From a virus: a DNA stretch of 64,000 nt. This document shows positions 16,113 through 53,548 of the stretch, piece by piece (position 1 is the stretch's first letter; every line of letters starts with the position of its first letter). A program made the position numbers and the translations under genes. Below the pieces are notes generated by a model. The model was given only the letters and a program-made list of their open reading frames with translations. It ran no database searches and was not told the DNA's origin. The DNA is taken from positions 119,313 to 183,312 of the IMG/VR virus record IMGVR_UViG_3300028588_000016; one strand, given 5' to 3'.

Positions 16113-16185
16113 CAGTCCCGATGGGAGTCGAACCCACTAAACCCCGATAGACAGTCGGGTACAACAGCCGTTATGCGCCGAGACC
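16113..16185 (-). tRNA. tRNA-Asp(GTC)
   Basis: CCCGA-CTGTCTA-TCGGG (T at position 37); G73. Confidence 0.85.
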
Positions 16186-16624: not shown

Positions 16625-16700
16625 TGGTGGACACGCACAGATTTGAACTGTATCTTCCGAGGTGCAAGCTCGGCGCATTTGCCATTTATGCTAACGGCCC
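16625..16700 (-). tRNA. tRNA-Ala(TGC)
   Basis: CCGAG-CTTGCAC-CTCGG; G3:U70; encoded CCA; imperfect inner acceptor stem. Confidence 0.85.
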
Positions 16701-25469: not shown

Positions 25470-26035
25470 GAGTCTGCACTTGATAGGTCAGGTTTATTAA
25501 TTACAGTAATTTTGGGACAGTTAACCAAGCCACATCGCGTGACTTGGTTTTCTTTATTAAACAAACTCAACCAGGAGAGTATAAAATAGTTTGTGATCAG
25601 ACTGGACGAAACATATATTTATGTCAAACTGTAAAACAATATTTAAAATGGTAATGATTCAAGGAGTTCTTATGTCTTTAGAAGACGCGAGAGAGTACGA
25701 TTTCAATTAAACATTTATTAACCCACACAGTTAGAGTAACAGGTTATGCTGACTCTAACTTTAAAATTATTTTAACATGACATACCAAGAAAGAATTGAT
25801 CTAGCTATATCAAAAGTAATAATGTATCAAGCAGATTCAAACTGCATTAGAGTGTTACACAGAACTGAAAGAGGTTTTAATGTAATCACCTTTAGTTATT
25901 CTTGGTGTAACATGGAACTACTAAGAGATGCAAGAAAAGTAAACATAGATGTAAACTTATATACATTCAAACAATATTTAAACAATCTGTTAACACCTGT
26001 ACTATTGTTGGCAGCTTAATCTAAAACCCAACCCA

Positions 26036-31086: not shown

Positions 31087-31170
31087 TACGTCTTAGCTCA
31101 GTCTGGTCAGAGTGCCCGCATCCGCATTAACATAAGCGGGAGGTCCGAGGTTCGAATCCTTGAGACGTAA
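31087..31170 (+). tRNA. tRNA-like gene with a 16-nt anticodon loop (possibly elongator Met-derived)
   Basis: Perfect acceptor TACGTCT/AGACGTA, canonical D and T arms; anticodon stem CCCGC/GCGGG encloses ATCCGCATTAACATAA. Confidence 0.75.
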
Positions 31171-39465: not shown

Positions 39466-39821
39466 GGGCGCGTTCTTGGTACTTGAGCGGGTAAGAACTA
39501 AAAGAGAAGCATGTAGTGCGTTGTTTGTGTGCACTTAAAAGAAGCATTCACATTTTTAACTGGCACTCCGGTGTACAGAATGGCTGCCTAGTCTCTAGGA
39601 GACGTAGTCATTCGCCCAGAAATGGGTTCGCGATCCATGACACTTGGGATCACATACTCGTGTTTAGACTTTGGCTGCAGTTGTGAGACATCTGAACTGC
39701 AGATAGTTGTCTGTTTACAACAGAATAGGCCGTTCCTTATAGCCAATAAATGTAGGATAAACATGTAATGAAGGCTTTTACTATTTACAACGTGACGAGG
39801 GTTCGACTCCCTCCGCGTCCA
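39466..39821 (+). ncRNA. ssrA: tmRNA (transfer-messenger RNA), tag (A)GTPVYRMAA* at 39562-39591
   Basis: Acceptor GGGCGCG/CGCGTCC-A with G3:U70; T-arm GAGGG-TTCGACT-CCCTC; AAGCATGTAG segment; TTTTAACT before the resume codon GGC; tag ends ...MAA-TAG; 356 nt. Confidence 0.92.
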
Positions 39822-39858
39822 CTATGCACATGGTGTGCATCAATTAAATTAAATTACG

Positions 39859-40688: not shown

Positions 40689-40771
40689 GCGTCTGTGGCC
40701 GAGCGGTCGAAGGCAAAGGCTTCCAAACCCTTTAACGAAAGTTCACCAAGGTTCGAATCCTTGCGGGCGTG
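40689..40771 (+). tRNA. tRNA-Trp(CCA) with atypical long variable arm
   Basis: AAGGC-TTCCAAA-CCCTT; 14-nt variable region TAACGAAAGTTCAC; class-II-like D arm GCC/GGC; G73. Confidence 0.8.
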
Positions 40772-40791
40772 CAAAATTAAAAACAAATACC

Positions 40792-49491: not shown

Positions 49492-50631
49492 ATGACTAGA
49501 GCGCAAATTGTGATTGATCTTATGTTCGGAGATTGTGGAAAAGGTGTAACAACCGATTCGTTAGCAATCAGAGCGCCTAAGAATTCAGTCAACGTGAGAT
49601 TTTCAGGTGGTCAACAGTGTGGTCACACAGTATACATTGATGAGAAAACAAATCATGTATTCTCTAATTTCGGTTCAGCTTCATTCAGAGGATTACCTAC
49701 ATATTTTACTGAACATTGTTTAGTATATCCTAAAACGATGTACGAAGAATATCTTACTCTATTACAATTAGATGTAAACCCTAAAGTTGTAATTCATCCA
49801 TTAGCTAAGTTAACAACTAATATAGATGTTGCTTGGAATAGAGCATTAGGATCTTTTAAAACAAACGGTACAGTAGGATTAGGTATCGGTGCAACGATGA
49901 CTAGACATAACACTAGTGGTCACAAATTGTATGCTTTTGATTTGCTTAACATGGAAATGTTAGCACATAAATTGCATAACATTCGTAATTATTATGTTCA
50001 GATGGCTATAAGAACTCTTCGTCAGGAAGATTACATAGCATTTCTTCATGAATGTGATAACACTACTTCTGTGTTCCTAGAGACTTGTTTCAAGATGGGT
50101 AAATACCTACAGATACAAGGATATGACTATTTGAATCAATTCGATTTAGGCATTTTCGAAGGATCTCAAGGGGTTTTGCTCGATATGGATCATGGTATCT
50201 TTCCAAACGTTACGTACGCAAATACCACTGCGAAAAACGCTGAGGAGGTGTTAAATCTCTTGGGTGTTGGTAAACATCATAGACAATATTTCTTATTAAC
50301 TAGGGCTTATACTCATCGTCACGGTGCAGGATGGATGCCTCATGAACAATCAGAAGTAACACTTGTTAATGATGAAATGGAAATAAACCAATGTTGTCCA
50401 TGGCAAGGTGAGCCTAGATCTTCTCCTTTCTGTCTTAATACTGTTAAAACAGCTATTGAGATAGTTAAGCTTTATTCTAATATCAGTATCTTTAATACTA
50501 ACATCATCTTAGGTTTTCTTGACCGAGTGACGTTAGAGGAACAGAACAGAGTGATAAAAGAATGTGAAGATCTTGAATACAGAGTTCAGCATCGTTGGAC
50601 ACACATATCCGAATTGTTATACCTTAAATAA
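49492..50631 (+). CDS. Adenylosuccinate-synthetase-like (PurA-fold) protein, divergent
   Basis: FGDCGKG, RFSGGQQCGHT, HVFSNFGS, GTVGLGIG, FEGSQGVLLD, TRAYTHRHGAG. Confidence 0.8.
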   Translation: MTRAQIVIDLMFGDCGKGVTTDSLAIRAPKNSVNVRFSGGQQCGHTVYIDEKTNHVFSNFGSASFRGLPTYFTEHCLVYPKTMYEEYLTLLQLDVNPKVVIHPLAKLTTNIDVAWNRALGSFKTNGTVGLGIGATMTRHNTSGHKLYAFDLLNMEMLAHKLHNIRNYYVQMAIRTLRQEDYIAFLHECDNTTSVFLETCFKMGKYLQIQGYDYLNQFDLGIFEGSQGVLLDMDHGIFPNVTYANTTAKNAEEVLNLLGVGKHHRQYFLLTRAYTHRHGAGWMPHEQSEVTLVNDEMEINQCCPWQGEPRSSPFCLNTVKTAIEIVKLYSNISIFNTNIILGFLDRVTLEEQNRVIKECEDLEYRVQHRWTHISELLYLK

Positions 50632-51260: not shown

Positions 51261-51755
51261 ATGAAGAAAATTCTATTAGTGCTACTCATGGTAGCTTATA
51301 TGTTCGCTGGTTGTGTTGAGCAAAAGCATTCAAAAGCTGAAATACACAAATACAAAACCGAAGGCGCTGTTGATGGTCAAAATGAAATCTTGTACTGGTA
51401 CTTGATGTTCTACAACAACACTTATTACTATTACAGCTCACCTGTTCCAATTACTGACTACAGTACGATTAACTGGTCAACTAGTGCAACATCGCCTAGT
51501 GAACTATTTGGTGCAACTGATTTAGGAGTTGATATGGTTTCTAGTGAATCTTTATCTGCTGATGTAGCCGATGCAGTCGATGCAGGAACAGATGCTAATG
51601 CAGACTCTGGAACAGACTCTAATGCCGATACAGGTGCCGATAGTAATAGTGATGCAGGAACAGACGCTGGTGCAGATGCCGGTGGTGATACAGGTGGCGA
51701 TGCTGGCGGTGGAGGAGACTCTGGCGGCGGTGACAGTGGAGGTGGTGGTGAATAA
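51261..51755 (+). CDS. Lipoprotein with D/A/G/S low-complexity repeat tail
   Basis: Lipobox FAGC; tail (DAGT/DANA/DSGT/DSNA...)GGGD. Confidence 0.7.
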   Translation: MKKILLVLLMVAYMFAGCVEQKHSKAEIHKYKTEGAVDGQNEILYWYLMFYNNTYYYYSSPVPITDYSTINWSTSATSPSELFGATDLGVDMVSSESLSADVADAVDAGTDANADSGTDSNADTGADSNSDAGTDAGADAGGDTGGDAGGGGDSGGGDSGGGGE

Positions 51756-51847
51756 CTACTACGGTCCTACTGAAGATTACGACGAAGACTATGATGAACT
51801 AGAGGTCTTCGACGGAGTATTCAACGGCTATTGGATATGAAATATTA

Positions 51848-52200
51848 AACTACTCTGCTTGAATACAGATAGCAATGTAAATCTGCATGTAGACAGGCTT
51901 TATGTGCAGTATTTGTGATGGATCCAACATCGTTCTGGGTAGAGTACGAGCAACTTTGAGTATTCTTATTCGACAAACCTTTATGGATCGGGTAAGTAAC
52001 GCCATTGCGTATCCTTTGGAAATGGGACAGAGTAGTTTATAAAAAATATTAAAACAACCTAATGTTGGCAAGCGGTGGGGAGTGTACATTACGCCATCGC
52101 TATAGTCTTTAATTTAATGTGTCGGGGTGAAACCTCATCATTTATAAATCTAATTAGCTATTAGAGGAGCTAAATACGCATTAGATACTGGGTTGTTTTA
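51848..52200 (+). ncRNA. Two adjacent stem-closed structured RNA domains
   Basis: AACTACTCTG/CAGAGTAGTT (51848-57/52028-37) and TAAAACAACC/GGTTGTTTTA (52050-59/52191-200). Confidence 0.45.
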
Positions 52201-52206
52201 TAAAAT

Positions 52207-52299
52207 ACGCATGTAGTTTAGATAGGACGAGAACACGCCAAATCCCAGGCACCAGAAGCATTGGCTGAAGAGACATGGGTTCGAATCCCGTCGTGTGTA
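52207..52299 (+). tRNA. tRNA-like gene with a 19-nt anticodon loop (possibly Gly-derived)
   Basis: Acceptor ACGCATG/CGTGTGT; D-stem GTTT/GAAC; stem GCCAA/TTGGC encloses ATCCCAGGCACCAGAAGCA; T-arm ATGGG-TTCGAAT-CCCGT. Confidence 0.7.
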
Positions 52300-52302
52300 C
52301 GT

Positions 52303-52549
52303 TAACTACTCAGCGGTTACTCAATACCGATCTTCTCGACTCTTCTAGGCTTGTATAGACGGTGAGTATTAAATGTAGTTCTAGAAGCCTCGGCCAAGTA
52401 GTAGTTAGAGCTCATGTCTATTTGTAGGTGTTAAGATTGGAGTTTAACTATAGTAAACGAAACCTTCAACATGCGGCATATCTTGATCAACCCATGCGTT
52501 ATGGTAATACAGAATGCTCTTAAGTGGAGGAAGATCATGTATATGCTGC
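52303..52549 (+). ncRNA. Two further stem-closed structured RNA domains
   Basis: TAACTACT/AGTAGTTA (52303-10/52400-07) and GCGGCATAT/ATATGCTGC (52473-81/52541-49). Confidence 0.4.
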
Positions 52550-52552
52550 TAC

Positions 52553-52626
52553 GGGTCCGTAGCAAAATGGTGAATGCACCAGACTCATAATCTGGCGATA
52601 TCCCGGTTCGAGCCCGGGCGGGCCCA
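52553..52626 (+). tRNA. tRNA(CAT), probably Ile2 (lysidine) type
   Basis: GGGTCCG/CGGGCCC-A; CCAGA-CTCATAA-TCTGG. Ile2 versus Met is inferred from the GGG acceptor. Confidence 0.82.
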
Positions 52627-52649
52627 CATTTAAATTAAATAGATAAGAA

Positions 52650-52964
52650 ATGACAGAAGAAGAGTACAAAGCGTTTCATGGAAACAATAGCGGTCCTTAT
52701 GAAACAAGACTTAATGACTTTACATTTGAGGAAGTGGTTGCATTCTTACAGAAAAAGAATTACACACTTGTTAATGTAAAATATACTTATACTTCATATC
52801 GTAATGATCAGAAGTGTGATGAAATAGGTAGAAAGACAATAGCTACTATGTTCTTTCGTGATTACCCTCTCGATATTCTGATAAGTGAAGAAGAAGCAAG
52901 GGAACTAGATTACGTTAATGTATTTAGAACAACAATTAAACAAGCGATCTTAAGTCTCTGGTAA
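52650..52964 (+). CDS. Hypothetical protein
   Basis: 104 aa ORF. Confidence 0.6.
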   Translation: MTEEEYKAFHGNNSGPYETRLNDFTFEEVVAFLQKKNYTLVNVKYTYTSYRNDQKCDEIGRKTIATMFFRDYPLDILISEEEARELDYVNVFRTTIKQAILSLW

Positions 52965-53548
52965 TGATACATATACAGTATTTAAAACAAAAGTACGATA
53001 AACTTAAAGCTAAAGCTACTGATGTACATTCTAAATATTCTATTACCAAAGTTAAAGGTAAAGATGATAAAGTTAATCTTAATGAAAGATTAAGACTGAG
53101 TAGTATAAGAGCAAGGTATAATCGTGAAGCTAATCATGTTAAAATGTTGTTAGCTAAAGTTAATTACATTATTGATACTCCAAATCATGAACCTTTATCT
53201 GATCCTGTTAAAGCAGTAGCTAGACATTTAGGACCCGTTCGTAAGTTTCTAAAAGAGTTACCACTAGTTGACGTATTTAAGTATGGACATAAGACCCGAA
53301 TGAAGACTTTCATCTTAAAAGGTTTTAAGTGTGCCAATCCTGAATGCGATAAAGTAGGAACTCGATTTATAGTAACACTAGATGAATACGGTGACGAGAG
53401 ATACGATATCTTTACAGAAGACTTCGTATTAATGACTAATGATCACATTATTCCTAAATCTAAAGGAGGGAGTAATCATATCAGTAATCTTCAACCTTTG
53501 TGTAAGAAACATAATCAAAAGAAATCTAACAAATTAATACCTTATTAA
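52964..53548 (+). CDS. HNH endonuclease
   Basis: CANPEC...DHIIPKSKGGSNHISNLQPLCKKHN. Confidence 0.85.
   Translation: MIHIQYLKQKYDKLKAKATDVHSKYSITKVKGKDDKVNLNERLRLSSIRARYNREANHVKMLLAKVNYIIDTPNHEPLSDPVKAVARHLGPVRKFLKELPLVDVFKYGHKTRMKTFILKGFKCANPECDKVGTRFIVTLDEYGDERYDIFTEDFVLMTNDHIIPKSKGGSNHISNLQPLCKKHNQKKSNKLIPY

What the first reader, a model, noticed from the sequence alone, without database searches (positions are those of the whole stretch)
52207..52299. Second expanded-anticodon tRNA (19-nt loop), sharing a 5'-ATCC loop start with the first
It has a canonical acceptor, a Gly-like GTTT/GAAC D-stem and a T arm. The anticodon stem GCCAA/TTGGC encloses ATCCCAGGCACCAGAAGCA. Excising 12 nt after position 37, the canonical archaeal/eukaryal intron site, gives AT-CCC-AA, a Gly tRNA, which is the one amino acid missing from the set. 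Both abnormal loops begin ATCC, which argues for a shared class or mechanism rather than two accidents.
Basis: partly seen in the sequence, partly recalled or inferred. Interest (0 to 1): 0.74.

Follow-up and report, generated by a model that had tools for sequence, protein, structure and literature searches.

The report
Phage tRNA look-alike with oversized loop
An uncultured 183-kb leaf-litter phage carries a well-formed tRNA-shaped gene whose anticodon loop is 19 bases instead of 7, so it cannot read codons as made. Calling it the phage's missing glycine tRNA rests on three letters only, and no test here supports removal of the extra 12 bases.

Summary
Window 52207-52299 (+) matches Rfam tRNA at 34.7 bits (cut-off 29). 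All 21 stem pairs and the elbow nucleotides are intact. The 5-bp anticodon stem GCCAA/TTGGC encloses a 19-nt loop. ARAGORN in intron mode reproduces "tRNA-Gly(CCC), 12-nt intron after position 37", and Gly is the only amino acid without a tRNA in this phage.

The spliced-Gly reading is not supported:
- There is no bulge-helix-bulge or anticodon-intron helix.
- The phage has no splicing endonuclease, RtcB, Rnl1 or Rnl2.
- GGG is 2% of Gly codons.
- The acceptor end is not Gly-like (A1-U72, G3·U70, A73). It carries the alanine determinant G3·U70/A73 and the arginine determinant A20.
- The GTTT/GAAC D-stem is not Gly-specific.

No homologue exists in any collection searched, so conservation cannot be tested. 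The shared "ATCC" start is not what is conserved in relatives of the other odd tRNA; those keep AT(T)TAAC.

Best reading (about 0.45): a non-decoding tRNA look-alike, processed like the phage's real tRNAs and perhaps aminoacylated. Rivals are a decayed tRNA gene (0.27) and an unknown splicing route (0.12).

This scan has already noted many oversized-loop phage tRNA look-alikes on other DNA. The closest published case is the Lak megaphage "enigmatic introns".

The parts
52207..52299 (+). tRNA-like gene, 93 nt, positions 1-73
   Evidence: Rfam RF00005 at 34.7 bits. ARAGORN -i gives a cloverleaf.
52207..52213 (+). Acceptor 5' strand ACGCATG. It pairs with 52292-52298 (CGTGTGT): A1-U72, C2-G71, G3·U70, C4-G69, A5-U68, U6·G67, G7-C66.
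   Evidence: Sequence. G3·U70 occurs elsewhere in this genome only in tRNA-Ala.
52216..52234 (+). D-arm GTTT-AGATAGGACGA-GAAC, with A14, G18G19, A20 and A21
   Evidence: Among the 23 tRNA(-like) genes, A directly after the D-loop GG is found only here and in tRNA-Arg(UCU); Tyr is ambiguous.
52235..52236 (+). 2-nt junction AC where tRNAs have one nucleotide (position 26)
   Evidence: ARAGORN bracket string 'ss'
52237..52265 (+). Anticodon arm: stem GCCAA/TTGGC (52237-52241 and 52261-52265) around the 19-nt loop 52242-52260
   Evidence: Stem plus 19-nt loop is -4.2 kcal/mol against -6.1 for two mini-hairpins.
52248..52259 (+). 12-nt insert GGCACCAGAAGC, formally between positions 37 and 38
   Evidence: ARAGORN -i. 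No pairing with the CCC triplet is possible. No complement of 12 nt or more elsewhere in the genome.
52266..52274 (+). 9-nt variable region TGAAGAGAC (class I tRNAs have 4-5 nt)
52275..52291 (+). T-arm ATGGG-TTCGAAT-CCCGT
52299..52300 (+). Discriminator A73 followed by an encoded C74 with no CCA, the same 3' rule as all other tRNA genes of the phage
   Evidence: C at position 74 in 23 of 23 tRNA(-like) genes. CCA-adding-type nucleotidyltransferase at G000:51099-51494.
31087..31170 (+). The other oversized-loop tRNA look-alike of this phage (16-nt loop ATCCGCATTAACATAA); a different body, not a paralogue
   Evidence: Rfam 51 bits

Best explanation
It is a maintained gene for a tRNA-shaped RNA that does not decode.

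Inferred pathway: it is transcribed on the + strand within the 0.9-kb gene-free stretch 51756-52649. RNase P cuts at its 5' end (U at -1). The 3' end is trimmed to A73-C74 and completed to CCA by the phage or host CCA-adding enzyme, as for the phage's 21 ordinary tRNAs.

The acceptor, D and T arms and the elbow are canonical, so enzymes that read the tRNA body should accept it. The 19-nt loop, the 2-nt junction and the 9-nt variable region keep it from presenting an anticodon in the ribosome. Its identity marks are mixed: G3·U70 with A73 (alanine), A20 with C35 and A73 (arginine), and C35 with C36 (glycine). If it is charged at all, alanine is the likeliest amino acid, because AlaRS ignores the anticodon.

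The most likely role is as a stand-in substrate or decoy for proteins that bind or cut tRNAs, such as host tRNA-cleaving defence nucleases. A role as an RNase P/Z processing signal in the transcript is also possible.

Shown: the fold, intact stems, flank rules and identity nucleotides. Inferred: expression, processing, charging and role.
For: - The tRNA model matches above threshold.
- All 21 of 21 stem pairs are standard, and U8, A14, G18G19, A21 and TTCGAAT are present. All three departures are length changes confined to loops and junctions. That fits selection on the fold better than random decay.
- The gene shares the genome-specific flank rule of the real tRNAs: T at -1 and C at position 74 in 23 of 23 genes of a 35% GC genome, and no encoded CCA. 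The phage has a CCA-adding-type enzyme.
- G3·U70 with A73 occurs only here and in tRNA-Ala. A20 occurs only here and in tRNA-Arg (identity sets from PMC9976931).
- A second oversized-loop look-alike in the same genome has homologues with oversized loops in two distant relatives. At least that sister gene is maintained.
- Further abnormal loops of 6, 9, 10 and 14 nt occur in tRNA-like genes of other phages in this group.
- Phage tRNAs that counter tRNA-cleaving defences are documented (PMC11464382, PMC11555353).
Against: - There is no homologue of this gene anywhere, so there is no covariation or conservation evidence.
- Expression is not shown.
- No decoy target is known, and no neighbouring gene gives a hint.
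- The mixed identity marks could be chance.
- Gly being the only amino acid without a tRNA, while the triplet after U33 is a Gly anticodon, is a coincidence of roughly 1 in 16 that this reading leaves unexplained.
Confidence: 0.45

Rival explanations
1. Decayed tRNA gene. A former tRNA picked up a 12-nt insertion in the anticodon loop plus small insertions at position 26 and in the variable region. It is now a neutral remnant, perhaps still transcribed and processed.
For: - It has three independent indel-type lesions and the lowest tRNA score in the genome: 34.7 bits against 35.5-68.9.
- The insert loosely repeats neighbouring motifs: GGC...GAAG, as in TTGGC-T-GAAG, and CCAG twice (by eye). 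That would fit slippage.
- The anticodon arm is thermodynamically marginal.
- No homologue shows that it is kept.
Against: - There is not one mismatch in 21 stem pairs, and no change in the invariant elbow nucleotides.
- It keeps the T(-1) and C74 flank rule of working tRNAs.
- Lytic phage genomes purge dead DNA quickly (general knowledge).
- The sister look-alike with an oversized loop is conserved across phages with about 50% protein identity.
Confidence: 0.27
2. The 12 nt after position 37 are cut out by an unknown endonuclease and the halves rejoined, for example by a host RtcB. This yields an 81-nt tRNA with anticodon CCC that supplies the phage's missing Gly tRNA.
For: - The only U in the loop sits where U33 should be, followed by CCC and A. 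The 5' half of the loop is therefore anticodon-loop-like, and the insert lies at the canonical 37/38 site.
- Gly is the only amino acid without a tRNA.
- C2-G71, C35, C36 and G10-C25 with G45 fit tRNA-Gly.
- Lak megaphage tRNAs have inserts at 37/38 that were read as introns (PMC6784885).
Against: - No BHB or anticodon-intron pairing is possible: the only GG follows A37 directly.
- Bacteria lack the splicing endonuclease, and the phage has none. It also lacks RtcB, Rnl1 and Rnl2 (with positive controls for three of the four).
- 12 nt cannot be a group I intron. The genuine tRNA intron found in a relative is a group I intron of about 200 nt.
- GGG is 2% of Gly codons, and every other phage tRNA serves a common codon.
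- A1-U72, G3·U70 and A73 contradict bacterial Gly identity (PMC9976931).
- A32 is atypical.
Confidence: 0.12
3. Recoding tRNA. After loop processing it is charged with Ala (via G3·U70/A73) or Arg (via A20/C35) and inserts that residue at GGG or CGG codons.
For: G3·U70 with A73, and A20, are each otherwise unique to the cognate tRNA in this genome. Removing CAGGCACCAGAA instead would leave AUCCGCA (anticodon CCG), which is the first 7 nt of the other odd loop.
Against: - This needs the same unsupported splicing step.
- The one GGG codon of the PurA-like gene sits at a column that is Gly in 79 of 79 homologues. The GGG codon of the 675-aa gene aligns with Gly or Ser.
- CGG is used 16 times in 161 ORFs.
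- C37 would be abnormal.
Confidence: 0.04

Closest known systems
'Enigmatic introns' in tRNA genes of Lak megaphages (Devoto et al. 2019, PMC6784885, Table S6)
   Same: These are phage tRNA genes with intact bodies and extra sequence placed right after position 37. They were found only with eukaryote or intron settings, and the removal mechanism is unknown.
   Different: The one Lak insert read here, in tRNA-Tyr, is 93 nt, and the inserts are identical across cohorts. This insert is 12 nt, has no relatives, and comes with two further length anomalies and non-cognate acceptor marks.
Archaeal/eukaryal protein-spliced tRNA introns at 37/38 (BHB motif, EndA/Sen endonuclease, RtcB or Trl1 ligase; PMC4090602)
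   Same: Insert position and size range (the shortest archaeal introns are of similar length; from memory).
   Different: There is no BHB or anticodon-intron helix. No endonuclease or ligase gene is present in the phage. The tmRNA gene implies a bacterial host (tmRNA is a bacterial system; from memory), and bacteria lack the endonuclease.
Group I introns in bacterial and phage tRNA anticodon loops
   Same: They interrupt the anticodon loop of a tRNA gene. One is present in a distant relative of this phage (L003:3089-3286, Intron_gpI at 44.8 bits).
   Different: They need a catalytic core of about 200 nt or more. 12 nt cannot self-splice.
tRNA-like domain of tmRNA
   Same: It has a tRNA-shaped top half with G3·U70, is charged by AlaRS, and does not read a codon. 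The phage also encodes a tmRNA at 39466-39824.
   Different: tmRNA has no D-stem or anticodon stem and carries a message. This RNA keeps all four arms and has no ORF.
Phage tRNAs that neutralise tRNA-cleaving defences (T5 tRNA-Lys against PARIS, PMC11464382; T5 tRNA-Tyr against Retron-Eco7, PMC11555353)
   Same: These are phage tRNA genes whose anticodon-arm differences matter for an arms race over tRNA cleavage.
   Different: Those tRNAs have 7-nt loops and work by decoding in place of the cut host tRNA. A non-decoding decoy is only my inference.
Stable tRNA-like RNAs of T-even and T5 phages (T4 species 1/2, T5 RNA1). A lead from earlier scan notes, not checked here.
   Same: tRNA-framed phage RNAs of unknown function, encoded among tRNA genes.
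   Different: They are much larger and have structured domains in place of the anticodon arm. I ran no sequence or fold comparison.

Membership tests
tRNA (Rfam RF00005) | Score at or above the gathering cut-off over the full model | tested here: met
   34.7 bits against 29, model positions 1-71
tRNA (Rfam RF00005) | 7-nt anticodon loop with U33 and a purine at 37 | tested here: not met
   The loop is 19 nt. U33 and A37 can be assigned only formally.
tRNA (Rfam RF00005) | Four arms with standard pairs and the elbow nucleotides U8, A14, G18G19, T54-C56 | tested here: met
   21 of 21 pairs are standard; D-loop AGATAGGACGA; T-loop TTCGAAT
Bacterial tRNA-Gly | Identity set U73, G1-C72, C2-G71, G3-C70, C35, C36 (PMC9976931, Table 1) | tested here: not met
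   It has A73, A1-U72, C2-G71 and G3·U70. CCC is present in the loop, so three of six elements are met.
   11 cellular tRNAs with TAGTTTA...GAAC and TGGGTTCGAATCCC are Arg x5, Val x2, His, Ala, Asp and one untyped. None is Gly. No cellular tRNA has this anticodon arm with or without the insert.
Protein-spliced (archaeal/eukaryal-type) intron-bearing tRNA | Bulge-helix-bulge or anticodon-intron helix exposing both splice sites | tested here: not met
   No such pairing appears in the MFE or suboptimal folds of the arm.
Protein-spliced (archaeal/eukaryal-type) intron-bearing tRNA | Splicing endonuclease and RNA ligase available | tested here: not met
   PF01974, PF01139 and PF09414 are absent from the complete phage genome, and positive controls rang. 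PF09511 is absent, but its control was silent. The host genome is unknown.
Protein-spliced (archaeal/eukaryal-type) intron-bearing tRNA | Spliced product observed | tested here: inconclusive
   The one metatranscriptome holding the phage has no contig over 52207-52299.
Group I intron-bearing tRNA | Catalytic core of about 200 nt or more in the anticodon loop | tested here: not met
   The insert is 12 nt. No Intron_gpI hit in 51700-52700.
tRNA-Ala acceptor identity (bacterial) | G3·U70 (major), A73, G2-C71, G4-C69, G20 (PMC9976931) | tested here: inconclusive
   G3·U70 and A73 are present. C2-G71, C4-G69 and A20 are not the Ala forms. Charging was not tested.
tRNA-Arg identity (bacterial) | A20 (main), C35, U/G36, A/G73 (PMC9976931) | tested here: inconclusive
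   A20, C35 and A73 are present, but position 36 is C. Charging was not tested.
Phage oversized-loop tRNA look-alikes (Lak-type 'introns' and earlier scan notes) | Intact tRNA body plus an anticodon loop far above 7 nt in a phage genome | tested here: met
Phage oversized-loop tRNA look-alikes (Lak-type 'introns' and earlier scan notes) | Conservation of the odd loop in related phages | tested here: not met
   No homologue in 5 related genomes, 75 further related loci, 50,697 phage records, IMG/VR or JGI metagenomes. The nearest relative of a neighbouring gene is only 48% identical, so the test had little power.

The most novel reading that the evidence does not exclude
A bacterial virus makes a working tRNA by removing a 12-nt, BHB-less insert at the canonical 37/38 site, using an endonuclease/ligase route not yet known in bacteria. 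Because the acceptor end carries G3·U70 and A73, the product might even carry alanine to GGG codons.
Probability: 0.08. Interest if true: 0.85.

Novelty: new member of a known kind. Interest (0 to 1): 0.38.

Why it matters
Oversized-loop tRNA look-alikes keep turning up in large phages, and nobody knows whether they are spliced, act as decoys or are dead. This example is small (93 nt) and has a short insert at the classical intron site. It also carries clear, testable identity marks for Ala, Arg and Gly. That makes it a convenient substrate for in vitro processing and charging assays. On its own it adds one unconserved example and no mechanism.

Tried and rejected
- RNA evidence: one leaf-litter metatranscriptome (X2) holds parts of the phage. 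Its contigs cover 52335-52547, the spacer up to 6 nt before tRNA-Met, but not the tRNA-like gene. No joint or deletion was seen. This says nothing about splicing or expression of the gene itself.
- Homologue searches, all empty:
  - megablast and blastn against phage records; blastn found only T-arm matches;
  - three exact or gapped patterns in IMG/VR;
  - two patterns in JGI metagenomes;
  - one pattern in 185,579 species genomes;
  - BLAST in 5 related phage genomes;
  - ARAGORN -i on those genomes;
  - a single-sequence covariance model over 2.2 Mb of related phage DNA. The best non-self hit was 34.3 bits, no better than generic tRNAs at 28-34 bits.
- Paralogue search within the genome: the best body identity is 0.69, to tRNA-Arg and tRNA-Lys, which is the generic tRNA level.
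- Target search: the longest complement to the 19-nt loop elsewhere in the genome is 11 nt, about what chance gives.
- Promoter and terminator scan of 51500-53000: nothing above the shuffled controls for promoters.
- 'RNA island' idea: the 253-nt spacer 52300-52552 folds no better than shuffles (z = -0.43). No other Rfam family occurs in 51700-52700.
- Neighbouring proteins: no tRNA-related function appears in the 10 proteins scanned against PHROGs or the 10 scanned against Pfam around the gene.
- Whole-molecule folding: the MFE is not a cloverleaf and z = +0.52. This is uninformative, because tRNAs often behave so.

Full report
**What is there**

The window is the last 64 kb of a 183,312-bp IMG/VR virus record that CheckV rates as complete. 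The record was assembled from a leaf-litter metagenome. Its phrog_1735-type 675-aa protein is about 42% identical to Ackermannviridae proteins. The nearest relative of the neighbouring PurA-like gene, among 5.8 billion proteins, is 48% identical. The phage therefore has no close relative in any collection available here.

At 52207-52299 (+) the sequence reads as follows:

| Element | Sequence |
|---|---|
| Acceptor 5' strand | ACGCATG |
| Positions 8-9 | TA |
| D-arm | GTTT-AGATAGGACGA-GAAC |
| Junction | AC |
| Anticodon arm | GCCAA-[ATCCCAGGCACCAGAAGCA]-TTGGC |
| Variable region | TGAAGAGAC |
| T-arm | ATGGG-TTCGAAT-CCCGT |
| Acceptor 3' strand | CGTGTGT |
| Discriminator | A |

Rfam's tRNA model matches exactly these coordinates at 34.7 bits, above the cut-off of 29. 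ARAGORN finds it only in intron mode, as tRNA-Gly(CCC) with a 12-nt insert after position 37.

There are two nucleotides instead of one between the D and anticodon stems, and the variable region is 9 nt.

**The tRNA set**

The genome holds 21 ordinary tRNA genes, two oversized-loop look-alikes and a tmRNA. All lie in this window.

This count includes tRNA-Asp(GUC) at 16113-16185(-) and tRNA-Ala(UGC) at 16628-16700(-). Rfam detects both. Default ARAGORN misses both, and only a lowered ARAGORN threshold recovers Asp.

The set covers 19 amino acids, and Gly is indeed the one missing.

**Tests of the spliced-Gly reading**

1. **Splice-site structure.** The insert cannot pair with the anticodon region, because its only GG directly follows A37. 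No bulge-helix-bulge can be drawn. The isolated arm prefers two mini-hairpins (-6.1 kcal/mol) over the 5-bp stem with a 19-nt loop (-4.2).
2. **Enzymes.** The complete phage genome has no tRNA splicing endonuclease, RtcB or Rnl2-type ligase, and the positive controls for these searches rang. It also has no Rnl1-type ligase, although that search had no positive control. Twelve nucleotides cannot be a group I intron. The one genuine tRNA intron found in a distant relative is a group I intron of about 200 nt.
3. **Codon demand.** In 161 long ORFs, GGG is 81 of 3298 Gly codons (2%). The other phage tRNAs read well-used codons such as AGA, GAA, CAA, GTA and ACA.
4. **Identity.** The bacterial Gly set is U73, G1-C72, C2-G71, G3-C70, C35 and C36 (PMC9976931). 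This gene has A73, A1-U72, C2-G71 and G3·U70. G3·U70 with A73, the alanine determinant, occurs in this genome only here and in tRNA-Ala. A20, the main bacterial arginine determinant, occurs only here and in tRNA-Arg(UCU), with Tyr ambiguous. The identity marks are therefore mixed, and Gly is the least supported outside the triplet itself.
5. **The 'Gly-like' D-stem.** Eleven cellular tRNAs share this D-stem and T-arm half. They are Arg, Val, His, Ala and Asp, and none is Gly. No cellular genome has this anticodon arm with or without an insert.
6. **Meaning of GGG.** The GGG codon in the PurA-like gene lies at a column that is Gly in 79 of 79 homologues. GGG therefore keeps its standard meaning.

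**RNA data**

One metatranscriptome holds parts of the phage. Its contigs cover the spacer 52335-52547 but not the gene, and no joint was seen. This is uninformative for splicing.

**Signs that the gene is handled as a tRNA**

- All 21 stem pairs are standard and all elbow nucleotides are present. The three anomalies are length changes in loops or junctions.
- Every one of the 23 tRNA(-like) genes, this one included, has C at position 74 and, apart from tRNA-Ala, no encoded CCA. Most, including this one, have T at -1.
- The phage encodes a CCA-adding-type nucleotidyltransferase.
- Both odd genes have G at position 75, where the canonical ones have A, T or C. Both have A at loop position 1, where all 21 canonical tRNAs have C or T. 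These are post-hoc observations.

**The 'ATCC' argument**

The other odd gene (31087-31170, loop ATCCGCATTAACATAA) has real homologues:
- L002:12703-12784 in the closest relative, at 46.9 bits, with loop GCCAAATTAACTT;
- L091:8771-8850, with loop ACCATTTAACTA.

What these share is AT(T)TAAC, not ATCC. The gene at 52207 has no such motif and a different body. So oversized loops are a maintained trait in this phage group. Further tRNA-like genes with 6-, 9-, 10- and 14-nt loops turned up in the related loci. The two genes of this phage are not shown to share a mechanism.

**Homologues of 52207**

None was found. The searches covered five related genomes, 75 further related loci, 50,697 phage records, IMG/VR, JGI metagenomes and 185,579 species genomes. 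The test has little power, however, because the phage stands alone.

**Verdict**

This is a real tRNA-shaped gene with an oversized anticodon loop.

| Reading | Confidence |
|---|---|
| Non-decoding look-alike, processed like the phage's tRNAs and possibly charged, most plausibly by the anticodon-blind AlaRS; role as decoy or stand-in for tRNA-binding or tRNA-cutting proteins, or as a processing signal | about 0.45 |
| Decayed tRNA gene | about 0.27 |
| Spliced Gly tRNA | about 0.12 |

The closest published precedent is the unexplained set of tRNA 'introns' in Lak megaphages (PMC6784885). Earlier notes of this scan list many similar look-alikes on other phage DNA. This is one more member of a known but unexplained kind. 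It has no conservation support, so interest is moderate to low.

Noticed in passing
window 16628-16700 (-) and 16113-16185 (-): tRNA-Ala(UGC) at 39.6 bits has G3·U70, A73, an encoded CCA and a bulged U in the acceptor 3' strand. tRNA-Asp(GUC) scores 35.5 bits. Default ARAGORN misses both, so tRNA counts for this phage depend on the tool.
   Followed up: partly
all 23 tRNA(-like) genes of the window, e.g. 52300: Position 74 is C in 23 of 23 genes, yet CCA is encoded only in tRNA-Ala. Position 75 is A in 18 genes, T in 2, C in tRNA-Ala, and G only in the two oversized-loop genes. A CCA-adding-type enzyme lies at G000:51099-51494, outside the window.
   Followed up: partly
L002:12703-12784 and L091:8771-8850: These are homologues of the window's other odd tRNA (31087-31170). 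They have 13- and 12-nt loops that share AT(T)TAAC, so this is a conserved oversized-loop tRNA-like family in phages with about 40-50% protein identity.
   Followed up: partly
L003:3064-3371 (G002, 306-kb phage): A tRNA-Ser(UGA)-like gene is interrupted after position 37 by about 218 nt. The insert matches the Rfam group I intron over the full model at 44.8 bits (E = 3e-10), just under the gathering score of 50.
   Followed up: partly
L108:9187-9262, L135:12038-12111, L141 and L145:9584-9657: These tRNA genes have an encoded CCA and 6-nt anticodon loops (TTAGCG, CTCAGG or CTTAGG). The L141/L145 pair differs only by TCA versus TTA at the centre, which is reminiscent of stop-codon suppressors.
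   Followed up: no
L135:12158-12241; L141 and L145:17611-17685; L118:12577-12649: More tRNA-like genes with abnormal loops: 14 nt, 9 nt (TTCCATCAT), and 10 nt on a 3-bp stem. The L118 gene shares the unusual 2-nt 'AC' junction and the CATGGGTTCGAATCCC T-arm with 52207, but scores only at the generic tRNA level.
   Followed up: partly
window 40689-40772 (+) and L005:12481-12564: tRNA-Trp(CCA) here and tRNA-Arg(CCU) in a relative each carry a small extra GAAA-capped hairpin in the variable region, although both belong to class I families.
   Followed up: no
window 49492-50631 (+): An adenylosuccinate-synthetase-family gene (PF00709) whose best PHROG carries a PurZ-type label. The best homologue is 48% identical. 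I did not examine whether it is PurA or PurZ (2-aminoadenine DNA).
   Followed up: no
window 25564-25630 (+): RAGATH-1 hammerhead ribozyme match at 60.7 bits, above the gathering score of 56.3.
   Followed up: no
window 52335-52547 (+): A leaf-litter metatranscriptome contig covers the spacer between the tRNA-like gene and tRNA-Met and stops 6 nt before the tRNA. The region may be transcribed, but DNA carry-over is not excluded. The spacer is not unusually structured (z = -0.43).
   Followed up: partly
window 52964-53548 (+): An HNH endonuclease gene lies about 340 nt downstream of tRNA-Met (52553-52627). This resembles the homing endonucleases found in the tRNA regions of T4- and T5-like phages (recalled from memory, not tested).
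   Followed up: no
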